In this document: positions 29,421-51,538 of the stretch, piece after piece
Numbering within the stretch: the stretch's first letter is position 1
Layout of the letters: each line of letters starts with the position of its first letter
From: a virus
Taxonomy: Duplodnaviria > Caudoviricetes
Virus record (IMG/VR): IMGVR_UViG_3300025944_000001
Coordinates: 659 to 64,658 of that record
Length of the DNA: 64,000 nt
Reading direction: 5' to 3' (one strand)
Position numbers and translations under genes: made by a program
Notes under the pieces: generated by a model
Told to the model about the DNA's origin: nothing
Seen by the model: the letters and a program-made list of their open reading frames with translations, nothing else
Databases searched by the model: none

Positions 29421-29833
29421 AGGTATAAAGGGAAGCAGTAGCTATGACCGCGAGCCTACAGCGGGATACCGATAGGTTGAGGTCGTGCCCTTGCGGGCGG
29501 AAATGGAGTCGGGGAAGCGAGCGTTACCCACATCTCACGGGCTTTGGTGCACCTCTACCCGTGCGTTTTGTTTAAACTACTCCCCGGCACATCTGACCAA
29601 CGGAGCCTTGCGGACGCTTACGCGGACTAGCCGCCGCCGTGGTCATTTTCTTGCGTCGCCCCGCTTCGAACGTCACGGGCGCGTCGACGATGCGGGCGGT
29701 TCGTGGTCCGGCTAGTATTCCCGAAGGTCGCCACCGCTGGGCGTGGTCTTTCGACCCGGTGCCTCGAACCGCCTCACACTTTCGCGTCGTTCAGTGCCGC
29801 ACAATGTGCTCAAACGGCACCGAACCCAACGCT
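29421..29833 (-). ncRNA. Structured RNA / 5' leader of about 410 nt downstream of the putative late promoter
   Basis: Minus-strand stems capped by stable tetraloops: CGC-GAAA-GTG, GGTC-GAAA-GACC, CC-TTCG-GG, CGC-GTAA-GCG, CC-GCAA-GG; contains a cloverleaf ending in CCA; no credible ORF. Confidence 0.55.
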
Positions 29834-45111: not shown

Positions 45112-45575
45112 CGTGCACCTCCCGTTCGGTCCCGCAACGGCCGCGCCATCGGCAGCAGGTTGTGCCGTAGTCGCTTCGACCGGCACATCGGCACGAACGC
45201 CTCGGCGTACCCGACGCCGCGAATCGTGCCGTCCGGTGCCTCCTCCGTCACAGTGTCGACGCTCCACGCCCGGCGATCGAAGCCCTCGACGACGTAGCCC
45301 TTCGCCGCCATCAGGTCAAGCGAGCGTTCCAGTTGGTCGGACACGGTCGCCGCCTCCAACTCCGCATCGGCCTTGCGCAGCGCGTTGGCGATGCCTCTGA
45401 TGGCGAACGGGTTGGTGTTGCTGCCGATGCGCAGTAACGCCAGTGCCGCCGCTTCCGTCGATGCGACCCGTGCCCGCGCGATTTCGAGGCGCGACGGCCC
45501 GCCGAAGGTGCCACAGCAAGCGCCCTGTGTGGCGGTTGTCCCGTTGACGGTATTTAGTTTTGGTTGTATACTCAA
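45108..45575 (-). CDS. Hypothetical protein (up to 155 aa)
   Basis: In-operon ORF; start uncertain. Confidence 0.45.
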   Translation of the reverse strand: MSIQPKLNTVNGTTATQGACCGTFGGPSRLEIARARVASTEAAALALLRIGSNTNPFAIRGIANALRKADAELEAATVSDQLERSLDLMAAKGYVVEGFDRRAWSVDTVTEEAPDGTIRGVGYAEAFVPMCRSKRLRHNLLPMARPLRDRTGGAR

Positions 45576-45612
45576 TAGCGTAAAGCCCTCAGAGTCGCCA
45601 GGAACCCAATTC

Positions 45613-45810
45613 CTAGGCGGCTCGCTTCATATCAGGTGCACCGCGTGCAAGATGGCCGCTGTCAAGCCGCCCGTTATCGCCTGCACGATTGCATCGATAA
45701 GCCGATTGTTGAACCGTCGTTTCCTTATCAATCCTCCCGTCATGGTGAACTCCTCTCTCGCCGTTCCATCGGCGGTCTTGCTGCCGTCCGTGCTCATCTA
45801 TGGGCATCAT
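45613..45810 (-). CDS. Hypothetical protein (65 aa)
   Basis: ORF right after tRNA-like element A; weak support. Confidence 0.3.
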   Translation of the reverse strand: MMPIDEHGRQQDRRWNGERGVHHDGRIDKETTVQQSAYRCNRAGDNGRLDSGHLARGAPDMKRAA

Positions 45811-45831
45811 GCCCGTCGTTCATTCCGTGAA

Positions 45832-45890
45832 TGGACCGGGAGGGAATCGAACCCTCACACTCTAGCGCTGTACCAATCAGCTTCCGGCCC
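45832..45890 (-). ncRNA. tRNA-like RNA A (59 nt) with no anticodon arm
   Basis: GGGCCGG AA GCTG-ATTGGTA-CAGC GCTAGAGTGT GAGGG-TTCGATT-CCCTC CCGGTCC A: 7-bp acceptor, 4-bp D stem, 5-bp T stem and canonical T loop, with only 10 nt between D and T arms. Confidence 0.75.
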
Positions 45891-45911
45891 GTATCGTCGT
45901 TACGCCGTCTC

Positions 45912-45949
45912 GCACGGGGCGGGCTGTTGACGTCGCGCCCGCCCCGTGC
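45912..45949. other. Perfect 13-bp GC hairpin just upstream of element A
   Basis: GCACGGGGCGGGC-(12 nt)-GCCCGCCCCGTGC. Confidence 0.6.
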
Positions 45950-46156
45950 TCTCTTCCAAACCAGCTATCTCAGAAATCCATATCAATTACGATAGGTCAC
46001 CTGATGGTTGCCGGTGCCCCGCTTTCGTTGTAGGTCGGTGTCACCTCCGTTTGCTGATTGCCTCGGTGGGCGCAAAGTGAATGTGAGTGCATGGGATTTT
46101 CCGGCGCAAGGCGCGCGGTAATCGTCGACCCCTCGAACGAACATTAGCACTCACAA

Positions 46157-46224
46157 AGGGGACCGGTGGAATCGAACCACCCCGCAACTATCCCTAGTCC
46201 GCACTGCCACTGTGCTTAGTCCCC
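46157..46224 (-). ncRNA. tRNA-like RNA B (68 nt) with the anticodon loop replaced by a GGGA tetraloop
   Basis: GGGGACT AA GCAC-AGTGGCA-GTGC G GACTA-GGGA-TAGTT GCGG GGTGG-TTCGATT-CCACC GGTCCCC T: full cloverleaf, but a 4-nt GNRA loop instead of a 7-nt anticodon loop. Confidence 0.8.
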
Positions 46225-46287
46225 GGCAATCATGGGGCTGATCTCCACCCTAGCCCCGCCCTCCTTCCTGCGCTCCGATGTGCGCGG

Positions 46288-46551
46288 CTAGGCTGCAATC
46301 CTCTCCCGCGTCGCGTACCGCCGCGTCGGCGCGGGCGTCGTCACGACTTCGAACTGCTCGGCTACTTCCGCCATGTGCGCCCGTGACGGCGGCAGGATTT
46401 CGGCATCGTCGAACCAGACGCGGTGACCGCCATCAAGCCACGACTTAGCGTTCGCGTTCGCCGCCGCCGCGATGTGCGGGTTATTGTTGTCCGGGTAGCT
46501 GCCGCGCAACGCCTTGCGGCCGTCGATTTCAACGTAGAGGTTCATCGTCAT
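46288..46551 (-). CDS. Hypothetical protein between the nucleotidyltransferase and the tRNA-like RNAs (87 aa)
   Basis: GGGAG RBS; 8 nt after the NTase stop. Confidence 0.55.
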   Translation of the reverse strand: MTMNLYVEIDGRKALRGSYPDNNNPHIAAAANANAKSWLDGGHRVWFDDAEILPPSRAHMAEVAEQFEVVTTPAPTRRYATRERIAA

Positions 46552-46558
46552 TAACTCC

Positions 46559-47422
46559 CTAGAACATGCGGTTGATTAGTTCAAGCAGGTAATCGTTCGG
46601 AACCTGTCCGTCTTCAAACTTCTTGTTCAACGCTTCGATAAGCATGGTGAAGAACAGAGCGTCGACACCCACGAGTTGGTCTTCAAGGATGGAAATGTTG
46701 TGCAAGTCGAGTTGGCTGATTTGCAGGGCCATCTTGAGTATCTGCCCTGCATTGATGCGCCAGCCGCGTTCAATGAACTTGCGCACCCGGAACATGGAAC
46801 ACACTGGATACTTCGACCCAACGTATCGCAGTTCTCGCGCCATCAAACATTCGAGCGCGTGGACATTAAGCACGAGTTCGCCGTCCCAAGACGTCCAGTA
46901 ATTGGTGCAGTGAATAAAGTCGAAGTTCTCGTGAATGGCCTCGGGTTCGCCGTAGAAGCGGATGACCAACTGAACCCGACCGTTCAAAGTAATCGCGTTG
47001 CTCGAAAGGAATACAGGCAGGTAAGCGCCTTCATCGTCGCCTTCAAGTACGGCCGGTTCGTCGACCACTTCGGTTTCGTCGGCGCTCTCGCCAGCAACGC
47101 CAGCCGATTTAATGAATATCCGCACCCTGCCCGACTCGTCGACTTTAACGGTCGAGTCTTTGACGGATTGACGCGTTGACTTGAACTTTTCAAGGTAGTA
47201 GTTGGCAACAGCCTCGGTGGTCGCCTTGTCCTTGAAGTAGATATCGAAGTCGTTGACTTCCTCGCCAAGAAGCATTGAGGCGATACAGCCACCGGTCACG
47301 ATAGAGCTGCGCTCAACCCACTTGCGCACTTTCTCATCCTCGATACTGGCGACGAACTCGTTGAACTTTCGAGTAATCACGCCCTTGATTGTTTTGGTCG
47401 TTAAGCCTCGCGTCATGTCCAT
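46559..47422 (-). CDS. Nucleotidyltransferase, CCA-adding/poly(A) polymerase head-domain-like (287 aa)
   Basis: VTGGCIASMLLGEEVNDFDIYF (cf. GGxVRDxLLGxxxxDxD), ENFDFIHCTNYW (cf. RRDFTINA), YPVCSMFRVRKF (cf. DPLRxLRAxRF); AAGGAG before ATG 47422. Confidence 0.7.
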   Translation of the reverse strand: MDMTRGLTTKTIKGVITRKFNEFVASIEDEKVRKWVERSSIVTGGCIASMLLGEEVNDFDIYFKDKATTEAVANYYLEKFKSTRQSVKDSTVKVDESGRVRIFIKSAGVAGESADETEVVDEPAVLEGDDEGAYLPVFLSSNAITLNGRVQLVIRFYGEPEAIHENFDFIHCTNYWTSWDGELVLNVHALECLMARELRYVGSKYPVCSMFRVRKFIERGWRINAGQILKMALQISQLDLHNISILEDQLVGVDALFFTMLIEALNKKFEDGQVPNDYLLELINRMF

Positions 47423-48596: not shown

Positions 48597-48625
48597 ATTT
48601 TATCAAAAAGATAATACCATGTCAA
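48597..48625 (-). promoter_or_regulatory. Early leftward promoter with embedded operator
   Basis: TTGACA, 17 nt, TAAAAT; palindrome TTATC-N5-GATAA at 48600-48614. Confidence 0.8.
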
Positions 48626-48896: not shown

Positions 48897-48925
48897 ATTT
48901 TATCTGATGGATAACAGGCTGTCAA
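48897..48925 (-). promoter_or_regulatory. cro promoter with embedded operator (probably leaderless mRNA)
   Basis: TTGACA, 17 nt, TAAAAT; TTATC-N5-GATAA at 48900-48914; the -10 box ends 7 nt from the cro ATG. Confidence 0.8.
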
Positions 48926-50011: not shown

Positions 50012-51538
50012 ATGCCCGACTTCTCCACCCTCACCCGCTTCGCCCTGTATCGTCGTGTCAGCTCGCAGGAGTCGTTCGAGAAAGACCTTTCGCTCCCCGA
50101 GCAGGCGGCACAGCAGCGCGACTACGTGACGCGTAACGGCGGCATCATCGTTGCGGAGTTCGAGGAGGGCAAGGGGATATCGGCGTCTCGGGAGGACCGC
50201 CCCGAGTTCCAGCGGATGATTAGCGCGGCGAAGTCGGGCGAGTTCGACGTACTCCTTATCCACCGCAGTAACCGCGTGTTCCGCTCCCGGATGCACGCCG
50301 TCACGTACAAGCACCTTCTAGGGCAGCACGGTATCCGGCTCGCCAGTGTCACCGAGTCCTTCATCGGCTCAGACGACCCGACAGACAAACTCCTTGAAGG
50401 CATCATGGAGTGCTTCAATGAATGGTTCCTTGAGAACCTCAAAGCTGAAATCGGCAAGGGTTTGCGGCAGGCAGCAGCCCAGGGCAGGCAGAGCGGGGCG
50501 GTCCCGTACGGGTACCAGTGGGACCGCGAAGGTGACGGCAATTGGGCGATAGATCCCGTGACGTCGCCCTGGGTCGCGCGGATCTTCGAAGCGTTCCTAA
50601 CGCGCAGCCTTGCGTTCTCCGAAATCGCCCGTGAACTCAACTCGCTGGGTGCGCCGTCGCCGGGAAATCCGGGAAGCGCCAAGCAGCGCCAGAATTGGAG
50701 CAACACCGGTACCGACTGGTGGGGCGCGGCCGTCAAGCGCATCCTGTCGCTCAGGCAGTACGTCGGAGACGTCCACTACAAGGGCGAGTGGTACAAGGGC
50801 GTGCACTCGGCGCTCATCACCCGCGACGTGTTCGACGAAACGGCGCGGCGGTTATCCGGTAAGCGCGTTGGGCGGTCGTACAGTGCGCCGGCGCTGTTCG
50901 GGACGGGCTTACTCCTATGCCCTCACTGCGGGCAGGCGTTGACCGTTCGGCGGCACGTGCACAAAGCCGATGGCGTTCGCCGGGAATACACGAACTACGC
51001 CTGCTCTACGCACTCGGCGTACACGCAGAAGACCGCCCAAGGTGGCATAGCGGCAATGGACTGCCCAGGCTTCATGATATCAGAGGGCAAGGTACTGGAC
51101 ACGTTCCGCCCCGTGCTAGAGGCCGCGAGCGCCGACGTCGACCCGGCCGTCATCACCGTTACGGCACTACCGCCGATGAAGCCACCGACCGACAACTATG
51201 CGTTGATGACGGCTATGCGGACGGAACTGGCGACGATCCCGACCACACGCACGAACTACCTGCGCATTGCCGGTAAGGGGATGATGCCCGATGACGTGCT
51301 CGCGGAGGAGTTGGCGTCGCTTTCGGCGCGGGAGGTCGCGATAACGGCCGAAATCGAACGGTTGACCAATCAGGGTACAATCAGGGCCGAACCCGACCCG
51401 GTGGACGCGTACCGGCTTCTGCGTGCCCTTGACCGCGATGACCTCACGGTACCACAGAAGCGTGATGCGATACGAGCGGTTTTTGTGTCCATCACGCCCA
51501 CTGCCGACAAGGTAGGGTTACGTTGTGTTTTGTGCTGA
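50012..51538 (+). CDS. Large serine recombinase (integrase) (508 aa)
   Basis: ALYRRVSS catalytic Ser, SASREDRPEFQRMI, HRSNRVFRS, recombinase domain (VPYGY..YVGD..HSALITRDVF), Zn ribbon CPHCG...YACS and coiled coil. Confidence 0.92.
   Translation: MPDFSTLTRFALYRRVSSQESFEKDLSLPEQAAQQRDYVTRNGGIIVAEFEEGKGISASREDRPEFQRMISAAKSGEFDVLLIHRSNRVFRSRMHAVTYKHLLGQHGIRLASVTESFIGSDDPTDKLLEGIMECFNEWFLENLKAEIGKGLRQAAAQGRQSGAVPYGYQWDREGDGNWAIDPVTSPWVARIFEAFLTRSLAFSEIARELNSLGAPSPGNPGSAKQRQNWSNTGTDWWGAAVKRILSLRQYVGDVHYKGEWYKGVHSALITRDVFDETARRLSGKRVGRSYSAPALFGTGLLLCPHCGQALTVRRHVHKADGVRREYTNYACSTHSAYTQKTAQGGIAAMDCPGFMISEGKVLDTFRPVLEAASADVDPAVITVTALPPMKPPTDNYALMTAMRTELATIPTTRTNYLRIAGKGMMPDDVLAEELASLSAREVAITAEIERLTNQGTIRAEPDPVDAYRLLRALDRDDLTVPQKRDAIRAVFVSITPTADKVGLRCVLC

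What the first reader, a model, noticed from the sequence alone, without database searches (positions are those of the whole stretch)
46157..46224. Full cloverleaf whose anticodon loop is replaced by a GNRA tetraloop
All four stems pair (GGGGACT/GGTCCCC, GCAC/GTGC, GACTA/TAGTT, GGTGG/CCACC), but the loop on the anticodon stem is the 4-nt GGGA. A stable tetraloop on intact stems looks selected rather than decayed. Position 8 is A instead of the usual U, as in element A. It cannot decode and lacks the 7-nt loop cut by anticodon nucleases (inference).
Basis: seen in the sequence. Interest (0 to 1): 0.75.

Follow-up and report, generated by a model that had tools for sequence, protein, structure and literature searches.

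The report
Phage tRNA look-alike without an anticodon
A temperate phage carries a gene for an RNA that folds like a complete tRNA but has a four-base cap where the anticodon should be, so it cannot read codons; it most likely marks where host tRNA-trimming enzymes cut the early message, and it belongs to a widespread, apparently undescribed class.

Summary
On the minus strand, 46157-46224 folds as its minimum-energy structure into a 68-nt cloverleaf. All 21 pairs form, the D- and T-loop elbow bases are canonical, and a GGGA tetraloop caps the 5-bp anticodon stem. ARAGORN and Rfam do not call it a tRNA. It lies in a 545-nt non-coding island of the early leftward operon of a complete 64.7-kb temperate phage, probably of Alphaproteobacteria. 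The island follows a Gad2-family nucleotidyltransferase gene and an 87-aa gene, and also holds a second, arm-less mimic (45832-45890).

No sequence homologue of the element exists in any collection searched, so it has no covariation of its own. The architecture does recur. These include a covarying alphaproteobacterial family with GNRA/UUCG caps and a haloarchaeal family in the 16S-23S spacer.

Best reading (0.45): a selected, non-decoding t-element cut by RNase P and RNase Z. Rivals are a trans-acting tRNA mimic, possibly tied to the nucleotidyltransferase (0.22), and a recently decayed tRNA gene (0.25).

This scan has reported similar anticodon-less tRNA-likes before on other DNA.

The parts
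46157..46224 (-). Element B: 68-nt cloverleaf tRNA-like RNA. Acceptor 46218-46224 / 46158-46164; discriminator U at 46157.
   Evidence: Sequence; MFE = cloverleaf; model R1 47.4 bits.
46186..46199 (-). Anticodon-position arm: 5-bp stem GACUA/UAGUU capped by the GGGA (GNRA) tetraloop at 46191-46194.
   Evidence: Sequence; fold; aligned without indel to the capped arm of R1.
46165..46181 (-). T arm GGUGG-UUCGAUU-CCACC with a canonical T loop.
46201..46217 (-). A8 A9 plus the D arm GCAC-AGUGGCA-GUGC (G18G19 present).
   Evidence: A8 is absent from 109 other truncated tRNA-likes.
46234..46257 (-). 6-bp hairpin GGGGCU...AGCCCC, 9 nt upstream of element B. It could become the 3' end of the upstream mRNA after RNase P cleavage. 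Not significant by itself.
   Evidence: Sequence; the 60 nt upstream of B give z +0.5.
45832..45890 (-). Element A: 59-nt tRNA-like with no anticodon arm (9-nt linker). It carries G1:C72, G2:C71, G3:U70 and A73, which is the alanine identity set.
   Evidence: Rfam tRNA 45.9 bits; R1 48.4 bits.
45912..45949 (-). Perfect 13-bp GC-rich hairpin, 21 nt upstream of element A.
   Evidence: I1; the 60 nt upstream of A give z -4.0.
45743..46287 (-). Non-coding island of about 545 nt holding hairpin-B, a 260-nt spacer and hairpin-A, between the 87-aa gene and a small ORF with a good RBS (ATG at 45742).
   Evidence: ORF list; sequence; no promoter-like site inside it.
46559..47422 (-). Upstream gene in the same operon: 287-aa nucleotidyltransferase of the Gad2 family (PF26128), with a fold like the head and neck of class II CCA-adding enzymes and poly(A) polymerase I.
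46288..46551 (-). 87-aa ORF of unknown function between the nucleotidyltransferase gene and element B.
48597..48625 (-). Leftward promoter-like site TTGACA-17-TAAAAT (a second one lies at 48897-48925). This is the likely start of the transcript that carries B and A.
   Evidence: consensus scan only.

Best explanation
Element B is a tRNA-derived but non-decoding RNA module that is kept for its tRNA 'top half'. It is transcribed as part of the early leftward polycistronic RNA. It folds into an L-shape whose acceptor/T helix and D/T elbow are recognised by host RNase P at the 5' side and by RNase Z or 3' exonucleases at the 3' side. Cutting there splits the early message and leaves the upstream Gad2-like/87-aa mRNA ending in a hairpin. 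It also releases a stable 68-nt tRNA-shaped RNA that could receive CCA. The stable GNRA cap keeps the helix rigid and guarantees that the RNA cannot act as an adaptor on the ribosome. In short it works like a t-element (tRNA punctuation). Shown: the fold, the intergenic same-strand position, the absence of an own promoter-like site, and the recurrence and covariation of the architecture elsewhere. Inferred: transcription, cleavage by RNase P/Z, and the benefit to the phage.
For: (1) The cloverleaf is perfect and has every elbow nucleotide, but the arm is 3 nt too short to decode. (2) Two such elements lie in one non-coding island of a phage with no functional tRNA. Both lack a usable anticodon arm, all their other pairs are intact (21/21 and 16/16), and both have the rare A8 (0 of 109 elsewhere). 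Two clean, independent losses with no other damage are unlikely under neutral decay. (3) The design recurs. (4) The alphaproteobacterial family covaries: 12 of 21 pairs change on both sides, 97.7% of cells pair, 0 of 500 shuffles reach this, and 3 of 5 pairs in the capped stem covary. (5) Processing contexts occur elsewhere. The haloarchaeal capped tRNA-likes sit in the 16S-23S spacer. Phage arm-less ones sit between terminase and portal genes on the same strand (L220). Of 79 viral elements, 58 are solitary and not in tRNA clusters. The 60 nt upstream are more structured than the 60 nt downstream (mean z -1.7 against -0.75). (6) There is precedent. t-elements are cut by RNase P and RNase Z in plant mitochondria (PMC1920247) and in Haloferax (PMC4326828).
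Against: Element B has no homologue, so no covariation applies to it. The 96%-identical relative L024 starts a protein-coding gene directly after the 87-aa gene, so the island is dispensable or mobile. The hairpin before B is not significant. The pattern scans required an intact D arm and T loop, so they cannot measure how many truncated copies are decayed. The GNRA enrichment rests largely on one family.
Confidence: 0.45

Rival explanations
1. Trans-acting tRNA mimic. After excision, B (with A) acts as a free RNA that occupies or is modified by a tRNA-binding protein. Candidates are an acceptor-end-targeting host toxin or defence enzyme, or the phage's own Gad2-family nucleotidyltransferase encoded two genes upstream, which could tail the CCA-less 3' end. 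The cap prevents any effect on decoding.
For: B and A are co-oriented with, and 330-730 nt downstream of, a nucleotidyltransferase whose model matches class II CCA-adding enzymes and PAP I (VIA-align Z 10-11 over 170-205 residues, Foldseek E 1e-4). PF01743 matches weakly at its GG...DxD motif (17.5 bits). Neither element encodes CCA. Element A carries the full alanine identity set, so at least A could be charged. The Gad2 mechanism is still unknown in the literature (10.1101/2023.05.01.538930; PMC13728456). The island is accessory, as anti-defence loci often are.
Against: The association is not conserved. None of 94 other Gad2-family loci has a truncated tRNA-like, by regex, by ARAGORN or by covariance model. 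None of 135 truncated tRNA-like loci has a Gad2 homologue. Only 7 of 48 long Gad2 loci have any tRNA within 4 kb. The 287-aa enzyme lacks the body and tail domains that class II enzymes use to hold the tRNA elbow. B has G3:C70 and U73 without an anticodon, so efficient aminoacylation is unlikely (established identity rules; inference).
Confidence: 0.22
2. Recently inactivated tRNA gene. B is a phage tRNA that lost 3 nt of its anticodon loop and has not yet accumulated further damage. The GNRA sequence is coincidence.
For: Phages gain and lose tRNA genes, and relatives of the neighbouring gene often have real tRNAs nearby (L005, L012). There is no homologue and no expression evidence. The closest relative lacks the element at this position. 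A single 3-nt deletion would be enough.
Against: All 21 pairs and all tertiary-contact bases are intact. The second element in the same island has independently lost the whole arm and is also otherwise perfect. A 64.7-kb phage with tight gene packing keeps 545 nt of non-coding DNA here. The same architecture is under purifying selection in other lineages. No parent tRNA could be identified among 261 tRNAs of related loci.
Confidence: 0.25
3. A DNA-level element: attP or an integration-site remnant, a replication primer site, or an assembly artefact that deleted 3 nt.
For: The phage is temperate (serine integrase at 50012-51538), and tRNA genes are common integration targets.
Against: No tyrosine integrase is present, and serine integrases do not use tRNA-derived att sites as a rule. 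Both tRNA halves are present, unlike att remnants. No reverse transcriptase is present. The element lies 3.8 kb from int. An artefact would not explain the second truncated element. Reads could not be checked.
Confidence: 0.05

Closest known systems
t-elements: tRNA-like processing signals of plant mitochondria (Forner et al. 2007, PMC1920247) and of Haloferax volcanii (Hölzle et al. 2008 and 2012, as cited in PMC4326828)
   Same: They keep the acceptor/T-arm shape, cannot decode, sit inside longer transcripts next to mRNA or rRNA ends, and are cut by RNase P and RNase Z.
   Different: They are described in organelles and archaea, not in phage operons. They are usually more degenerate than this complete four-arm cloverleaf with a GNRA cap. 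Cleavage of this element is untested.
mascRNA / MALAT1 3'-end module (Rfam RF01684)
   Same: A tRNA-like RNA with a shortened anticodon arm. RNase P cleavage creates the upstream RNA's 3' end, which a structure protects. The small RNA then receives CCA.
   Different: It is eukaryotic and has no sequence relation. RF01684 scores only 21 bits on element A (threshold 42.5) and does not match B.
YrlA / bacterial and phage Y RNAs (Chen et al. 2014, PMC4201824)
   Same: [quoted passage not shown]
   Different: YrlA is circularly permuted: its acceptor-like stem is closed and its ends lie at the Ro60-binding stem. It is encoded next to a Ro60 (TROVE) gene. This element has normal tRNA topology, and the genome has no TROVE match.
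tRNA-like domain of tmRNA
   Same: A non-decoding tRNA mimic with A at position 8 (from memory). Element A shares G3:U70.
   Different: tmRNA lacks a D stem and carries an mRNA-like domain. ARAGORN finds no tmRNA here. B has G3:C70.
Tetraloop-capped tRNA-likes found here: the alphaproteobacterial chromosomal family (alignment A3) and the haloarchaeal 16S-23S spacer family
   Same: The architecture is identical: a 7/4/5/5 cloverleaf with a 4-nt cap, often GNRA. B scores 47.4 bits against the family model.
   Different: There is no sequence homology beyond universal tRNA positions. Those have U8 and (in Alphaproteobacteria) an encoded CCA and G3:U70. Their contexts differ: fused to a second tRNA-like upstream of an SPFH gene, or inside an rRNA operon. 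I found no description of them in the literature searches.

Membership tests
Canonical tRNA (Rfam RF00005) | Four-arm cloverleaf with conserved D- and T-loop nucleotides | tested here: met
   MFE cloverleaf with G18G19 and UUCGAUU.
Canonical tRNA (Rfam RF00005) | 7-nt anticodon loop with U33 and an anticodon | tested here: not met
   The loop is GGGA (4 nt). The arm has 14 nt, and no register gives 5 bp plus 7 nt.
Canonical tRNA (Rfam RF00005) | Score at or above the gathering threshold (29 bits), or a call by a tRNA finder | tested here: not met
   Not listed at gathering. Best clan hit 19.3 bits with the tRNA-Sec model. ARAGORN finds 0 genes.
t-element / tRNA punctuation signal | tRNA-like acceptor/T-arm (and elbow) structure that cannot decode | tested here: met
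t-element / tRNA punctuation signal | Lies within a longer transcript, between genes, on the coding strand | tested here: inconclusive
   It is intergenic, on the same strand as all neighbouring genes, with no promoter-like site between 46551 and 46224. Transcription itself is not shown.
t-element / tRNA punctuation signal | Cleaved by RNase P and/or RNase Z, creating mRNA ends | not testable with these tools
YrlA / Y RNA (Ro60 partner) | Permuted topology with a Ro60-binding stem, and an adjacent TROVE gene | tested here: not met
   Normal 5'/3' acceptor topology. No Rfam Y RNA hit. No TROVE match in the complete genome.
tmRNA | tRNA-like domain plus a tag-encoding mRNA domain | tested here: not met
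   ARAGORN finds no tmRNA. The element is a 68-nt closed cloverleaf.
Tetraloop-capped tRNA-like class (model R1, defined here) | 7/4/5/5 cloverleaf with a 4-nt cap on the anticodon-position stem | tested here: met
   47.4 bits, E 3e-12, full length, no indel in the capped arm. This shows shared architecture, not shared descent.
Class II CCA-adding enzyme (for the neighbouring gene) | Head and neck fold with a GG...DxD motif | tested here: met
   Z 10-11 to 3H3A, 3AQL and 3WFS. G44 G45 D58 D60 are invariant. PF01743 scores 17.5 bits, below its 23-bit cut-off.
Class II CCA-adding enzyme (for the neighbouring gene) | Body and tail domains that hold the tRNA, nucleotide-selecting motifs, and Pfam PF01743 above its cut-off | tested here: not met
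   The protein has 287 aa. Most top alignments stop near residue 220-300 of the enzymes. There is no Pfam or NCBIfam hit at threshold. It is filed instead under PF26128 Gad2.

The most novel reading that the evidence does not exclude
B and A are the RNA partners of the Gad2-family nucleotidyltransferase. In this reading the phage makes anticodon-less tRNA mimics, and its own CCA-adding-like enzyme tails them or uses them as primers. The product would neutralise a host defence such as Gabija or an acceptor-end-targeting toxin. That would give the first mechanism for Gad2 and a first RNA-based tRNA-mimic anti-defence module.
Probability: 0.08. Interest if true: 0.85.

Novelty: new variant of a known kind. 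Interest (0 to 1): 0.55.

Why it matters
If these elements are processing signals, phages use the host tRNA-maturation machinery to punctuate their operons, as mitochondria do. A whole class of 'failed tRNA predictions' in phage and bacterial genomes would then be functional RNA. I found no description of them in the literature searched. The position next to a Gad2-family enzyme of unknown mechanism also gives a cheap, testable lead.

Tried and rejected
Homologue searches for element B all came back empty:
- blastn of 45500-46600 against 50,697 phage records found no match.
- The exact T-arm/acceptor word found 0 matches in IMG/VR.
- A degenerate A8A9 pattern found 0 matches in IMG/VR.

Neighbouring genes and relatives:
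- The 87-aa and 155-aa neighbours have no relatives in IMG/VR.
- L024, the 96%-identical relative, ends 42 nt after it diverges and shows a gene start instead of the island.

Link between Gad2 genes and tRNA-likes:
- Other Gad2 loci hold only ordinary tRNAs, by regex, ARAGORN and covariance model.

The nucleotidyltransferase:
- No PDB sequence hit, with the single protein or with a profile.
- No PADLOC, Pfam or NCBIfam hit at threshold.
- The automatic UniRef label 'AbiEii/AbiGii toxin' is not supported by fold: MenT1 gives Z 4.1 against Z 10-11 for CCA-adding enzymes.

Other readings tested on the complete genome:
- Y RNA/Ro60: no TROVE.
- attP: no tyrosine integrase.
- Reverse-transcription primer: no RT.
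- tRNA repair: no RtcB.

Smaller checks:
- Parent tRNA of B: no convincing nearest tRNA among 261.
- Flank repeats that would show duplication of A and B: none beyond the T loop.
- A third R1 hit at 29506-29586 (17.8 bits) does not fold as a cloverleaf.
- Seven literature searches found no description of capped-anticodon tRNA-likes in phages or bacteria.

Without runs, read laying could not be used. An independent 64,672-bp assembly that carries the same nucleotidyltransferase therefore could not be compared.

Full report
**What is there.** The window is nearly all of a complete IMG/VR virus record (64,658 bp, direct terminal repeats). On the minus strand, 46224->46157 reads as follows: acceptor GGGGACU, A8 A9, D arm GCAC-AGUGGCA-GUGC, G26, stem GACUA, loop GGGA, stem UAGUU, variable GCGG, T arm GGUGG-UUCGAUU-CCACC, acceptor GGUCCCC, discriminator U. 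RNAfold returns exactly this cloverleaf as both MFE and centroid (-27.9 kcal/mol, z -2.25). All 21 pairs form and every elbow nucleotide is present. The anticodon-position arm has 14 nt instead of 17, so no register gives a 7-nt loop. ARAGORN finds no tRNA in the window. Rfam lists only the neighbouring 59-nt element at 45832-45890 (tRNA, 45.9 bits, anticodon arm absent). Element B reaches only 19.3 bits with any tRNA-clan model.

**Setting.**
- All neighbouring genes are on the minus strand. Two near-consensus leftward promoter-like sites lie at about 48.6 and 48.9 kb.
- Reading along the transcript, the order is: a 287-aa nucleotidyltransferase gene (47422->46559), an 87-aa ORF (46551->46288), and then about 545 nt without a credible gene.
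- That stretch holds a 6-bp hairpin, a 9-nt leader, element B, a 260-nt spacer, a perfect 13-bp hairpin, a 21-nt leader and element A. A small ORF with a good RBS follows.
- Neither element encodes CCA.
- The phage has a serine integrase. It has no tyrosine integrase, reverse transcriptase, RtcB or Ro60/TROVE gene.
- Its terminase is closest, at under 30% identity, to phages of Sinorhizobium, Pelagibacter, Roseobacter and Rhizobium. Named homologues of the nucleotidyltransferase are from Methylorubrum and Novosphingobium. The host is therefore probably an alphaproteobacterium.

**The neighbouring enzyme.**
- The 287-aa protein belongs to PHROG 4400 and to Pfam PF26128, 'Gad2' or Gabija anti-defence 2.
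- An AlphaFold model (pLDDT 83) matches class II CCA-adding and A-adding enzymes and E. coli poly(A) polymerase I. Foldseek gives E 1e-4. VIA-align gives Z 10-11 over 170-205 residues, against Z 4.1 for MenT1.
- PF01743 touches the GG...DxD motif at 17.5 bits, below its cut-off.
- The protein has the head and neck of that fold but not the body and tail.
- Gad2 is known to cancel Gabija defence by an unknown, probably enzymatic mechanism (10.1101/2023.05.01.538930; still unresolved in PMC13728456, November 2026).

**Is the enzyme tied to tRNA mimics?** Apparently not as a rule. In 94 other loci encoding family members (33-63% identity, plus one at 96-99%), regex, ARAGORN and a covariance model found only ordinary tRNAs. 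These occur within 4 kb in 7 of 48 long loci. Conversely, none of 135 truncated tRNA-like loci holds a Gad2 homologue.

**Homologues of element B.** None was found. blastn against phage records, exact and degenerate patterns in IMG/VR, and searches with the flanking small proteins were all empty. The only close relative, metagenome contig L024 (96% identical over the enzyme gene), ends its 87-aa homologue with TAA. GGAG and an ATG follow at once, so a protein-coding gene starts where this phage has the hairpin and B. The island is therefore variable between near relatives, and B has no covariation evidence of its own.

**The architecture recurs widely.** I searched for an intact 7-nt-loop D arm followed, at a distance too short for a normal anticodon arm, by GGTTCGATTCC. 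After filtering for acceptor, T and D pairing, 121 distinct sequences remained:
- 31 have no anticodon arm, like element A.
- 36 have a stem closed by a 4-nt loop, like B. Of these loops, 13 are GNRA and 4 UNCG. These counts are not phylogenetically independent.
- Of 79 viral elements, 71 are not called by ARAGORN and 58 have no tRNA within 1 kb.
- Some lie inside operons on the coding strand, for example between terminase and portal genes (L220).
- The 60 nt upstream are on average more structured than the 60 nt downstream (mean z -1.7 against -0.75).

**Two informative families.**
- A chromosomal alphaproteobacterial family (21 sequences, alignment A3) has a 5-bp stem capped by GAAA, GCAA, GCGA, GGAA, GAGA, GGGA, UUCG and similar loops. 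It pairs in 97.7% of cells. Twelve of 21 pairs change on both sides, including 3 of 5 in the capped stem, and 0 of 500 shuffles reach these values.
- Haloarchaeal capped tRNA-likes lie between the 16S and 23S rRNA genes. That is a classical processing position.
- A model built from A3 matches B end to end (47.4 bits, E 3e-12) and A (48.4 bits). B thus fits this design far better than it fits tRNA.
- This scan has reported similar anticodon-less tRNA-likes on other DNA before.

**Selection at this locus.** The argument is indirect.
- A phage with no working tRNA keeps two tRNA-shaped elements in one island.
- Both have lost decoding capacity in different ways, while all their other pairs and tertiary bases are intact.
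- Both carry A8, which none of 109 other truncated tRNA-likes has.
- Relative to each other, eight stem pairs differ on both sides without a single mismatch. This counts only if the two are paralogues, which cannot be shown: no flank repeats exist and no parent tRNA was identified.

**Mechanism.** The parts of a tRNA that remain are exactly those read by RNase P, RNase Z, the CCA-adding enzyme and elbow-binding proteins. The part removed is the one the ribosome, most synthetases and anticodon nucleases need. tRNA-like 't-elements' are established RNase P/Z signals in plant mitochondria (PMC1920247) and Haloferax (PMC4326828), and mascRNA is the mammalian analogue. I therefore rate a cis-acting processing module that also releases a stable tRNA-shaped RNA as most likely (0.45). 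A trans-acting mimic, possibly a substrate of the adjacent nucleotidyltransferase, comes next (0.22). Recent decay of a tRNA gene stays a serious rival (0.25) because nothing shows expression or conservation of this copy. DNA-level explanations or an assembly artefact are unlikely (0.05).

On charging: B (G3:C70, U73, no anticodon) is unlikely to be aminoacylated efficiently. A (G1:C72, G2:C71, G3:U70, A73) has the alanine identity set. Both statements rest on established identity rules, not on tests done here.

**Limits.** Reads, RNA data and the independent 64,672-bp assembly therefore could not be examined. The pattern scans were capped and cover only one T-loop and D-loop spelling, so all counts are lower bounds and say nothing about decayed copies.

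**Verdict.** It is a non-decoding tRNA look-alike, and its design recurs and is selected elsewhere. At this locus its function is inferred, not shown.

Noticed in passing
L128:3225-3371 (-); likewise L190, L205, L207, L126, L200, L141 and 14 more loci (alignment A3): A conserved chromosomal non-coding RNA of Hyphomicrobiales-type Alphaproteobacteria. A tetraloop-capped tRNA-like (G3:U70, encoded CCA, covarying stems) is fused head to tail to a second tRNA-like. The second unit has only a 5-bp acceptor stem and an anticodon that differs between genomes (Lys, Asn, Thr, Ile, Gly, or again a tetraloop), and a hairpin follows it. A conserved GTGTTCCGC motif lies upstream. The whole unit sits upstream of an SPFH/Band 7 gene. 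I found no description of it.
   Followed up: partly
L101:1611-1656, L096:239-285, and L100, L103, L156, L170, L189, L110, L167: Haloarchaea (Halorientalis, Salinibaculum, Halapricum) carry a tRNA-like with a UUCG-type capped anticodon arm in the 16S-23S rRNA spacer, where a tRNA-Ala gene usually lies. It looks like a pure processing signal.
   Followed up: partly
window 45832-45890 (-): Element A is a 59-nt tRNA-like with no anticodon arm. It carries the complete alanine identity set (G1:C72, G2:C71, G3:U70, A73). Similar arm-less elements with GGGCC.../...GGTCC-A acceptors occur in viral contigs L230 and L279.
   Followed up: partly
window 46559-47422 (-): The Gad2-family (PF26128) anti-Gabija nucleotidyltransferase folds like the head and neck of class II CCA-adding enzymes and poly(A) polymerase I (Z 10-11). 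This points to an RNA 3'-end substrate for Gad2, whose mechanism is unpublished. The automatic 'AbiEii toxin' label is not supported by fold.
   Followed up: partly
L024:974-1015 against window 46262-46303: The closest relative (96% nucleotide identity over the enzyme gene) has a 59-nt insertion in the 87-aa gene. It starts a protein-coding gene directly after that gene's stop, with no hairpin or element B. The non-coding island is a mosaic, accessory segment.
   Followed up: partly
L220:1986-2043 (+); L249:2052-2113 (-); L232:5124-5191 (+): Truncated tRNA-likes in other phage contigs lie between the terminase and portal genes (L220), directly 5' of a TnpB/IS605 OrfB gene (L249), and upstream of a Schlafen AlbA_2 gene (L232; the same UUCG-capped element occurs in a Weissella viridescens genome, L163).
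   Followed up: no
L231, L233, L235, L254, L269, L272, L275, L277, L288, L291, L303, L306, L315, L216 (IMG/VR), and L132, L153 (Parabacteroides): A large family of phage and Bacteroidales tRNA-likes has a 5-bp stem (UCCCC/GGGGA, covarying) closed by 4-nt loops (GACC, UACC, UACU). It apparently has a 4-bp T stem and a shifted acceptor register.
   Followed up: no
window 29506-29586 (-): A weak third match to the capped tRNA-like model (17.8 bits, E 0.004) lies in the gene-free structured leader before the late genes. Its MFE is an irregular long hairpin, not a cloverleaf, so it is probably not a tRNA-like.
   Followed up: yes
window 46004-46014 and 46223-46233: An 11-nt inverted repeat (one mismatch) could pair the 5' leader and first two bases of element B with a site about 210 nt downstream in the spacer. 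It may be chance.
   Followed up: no
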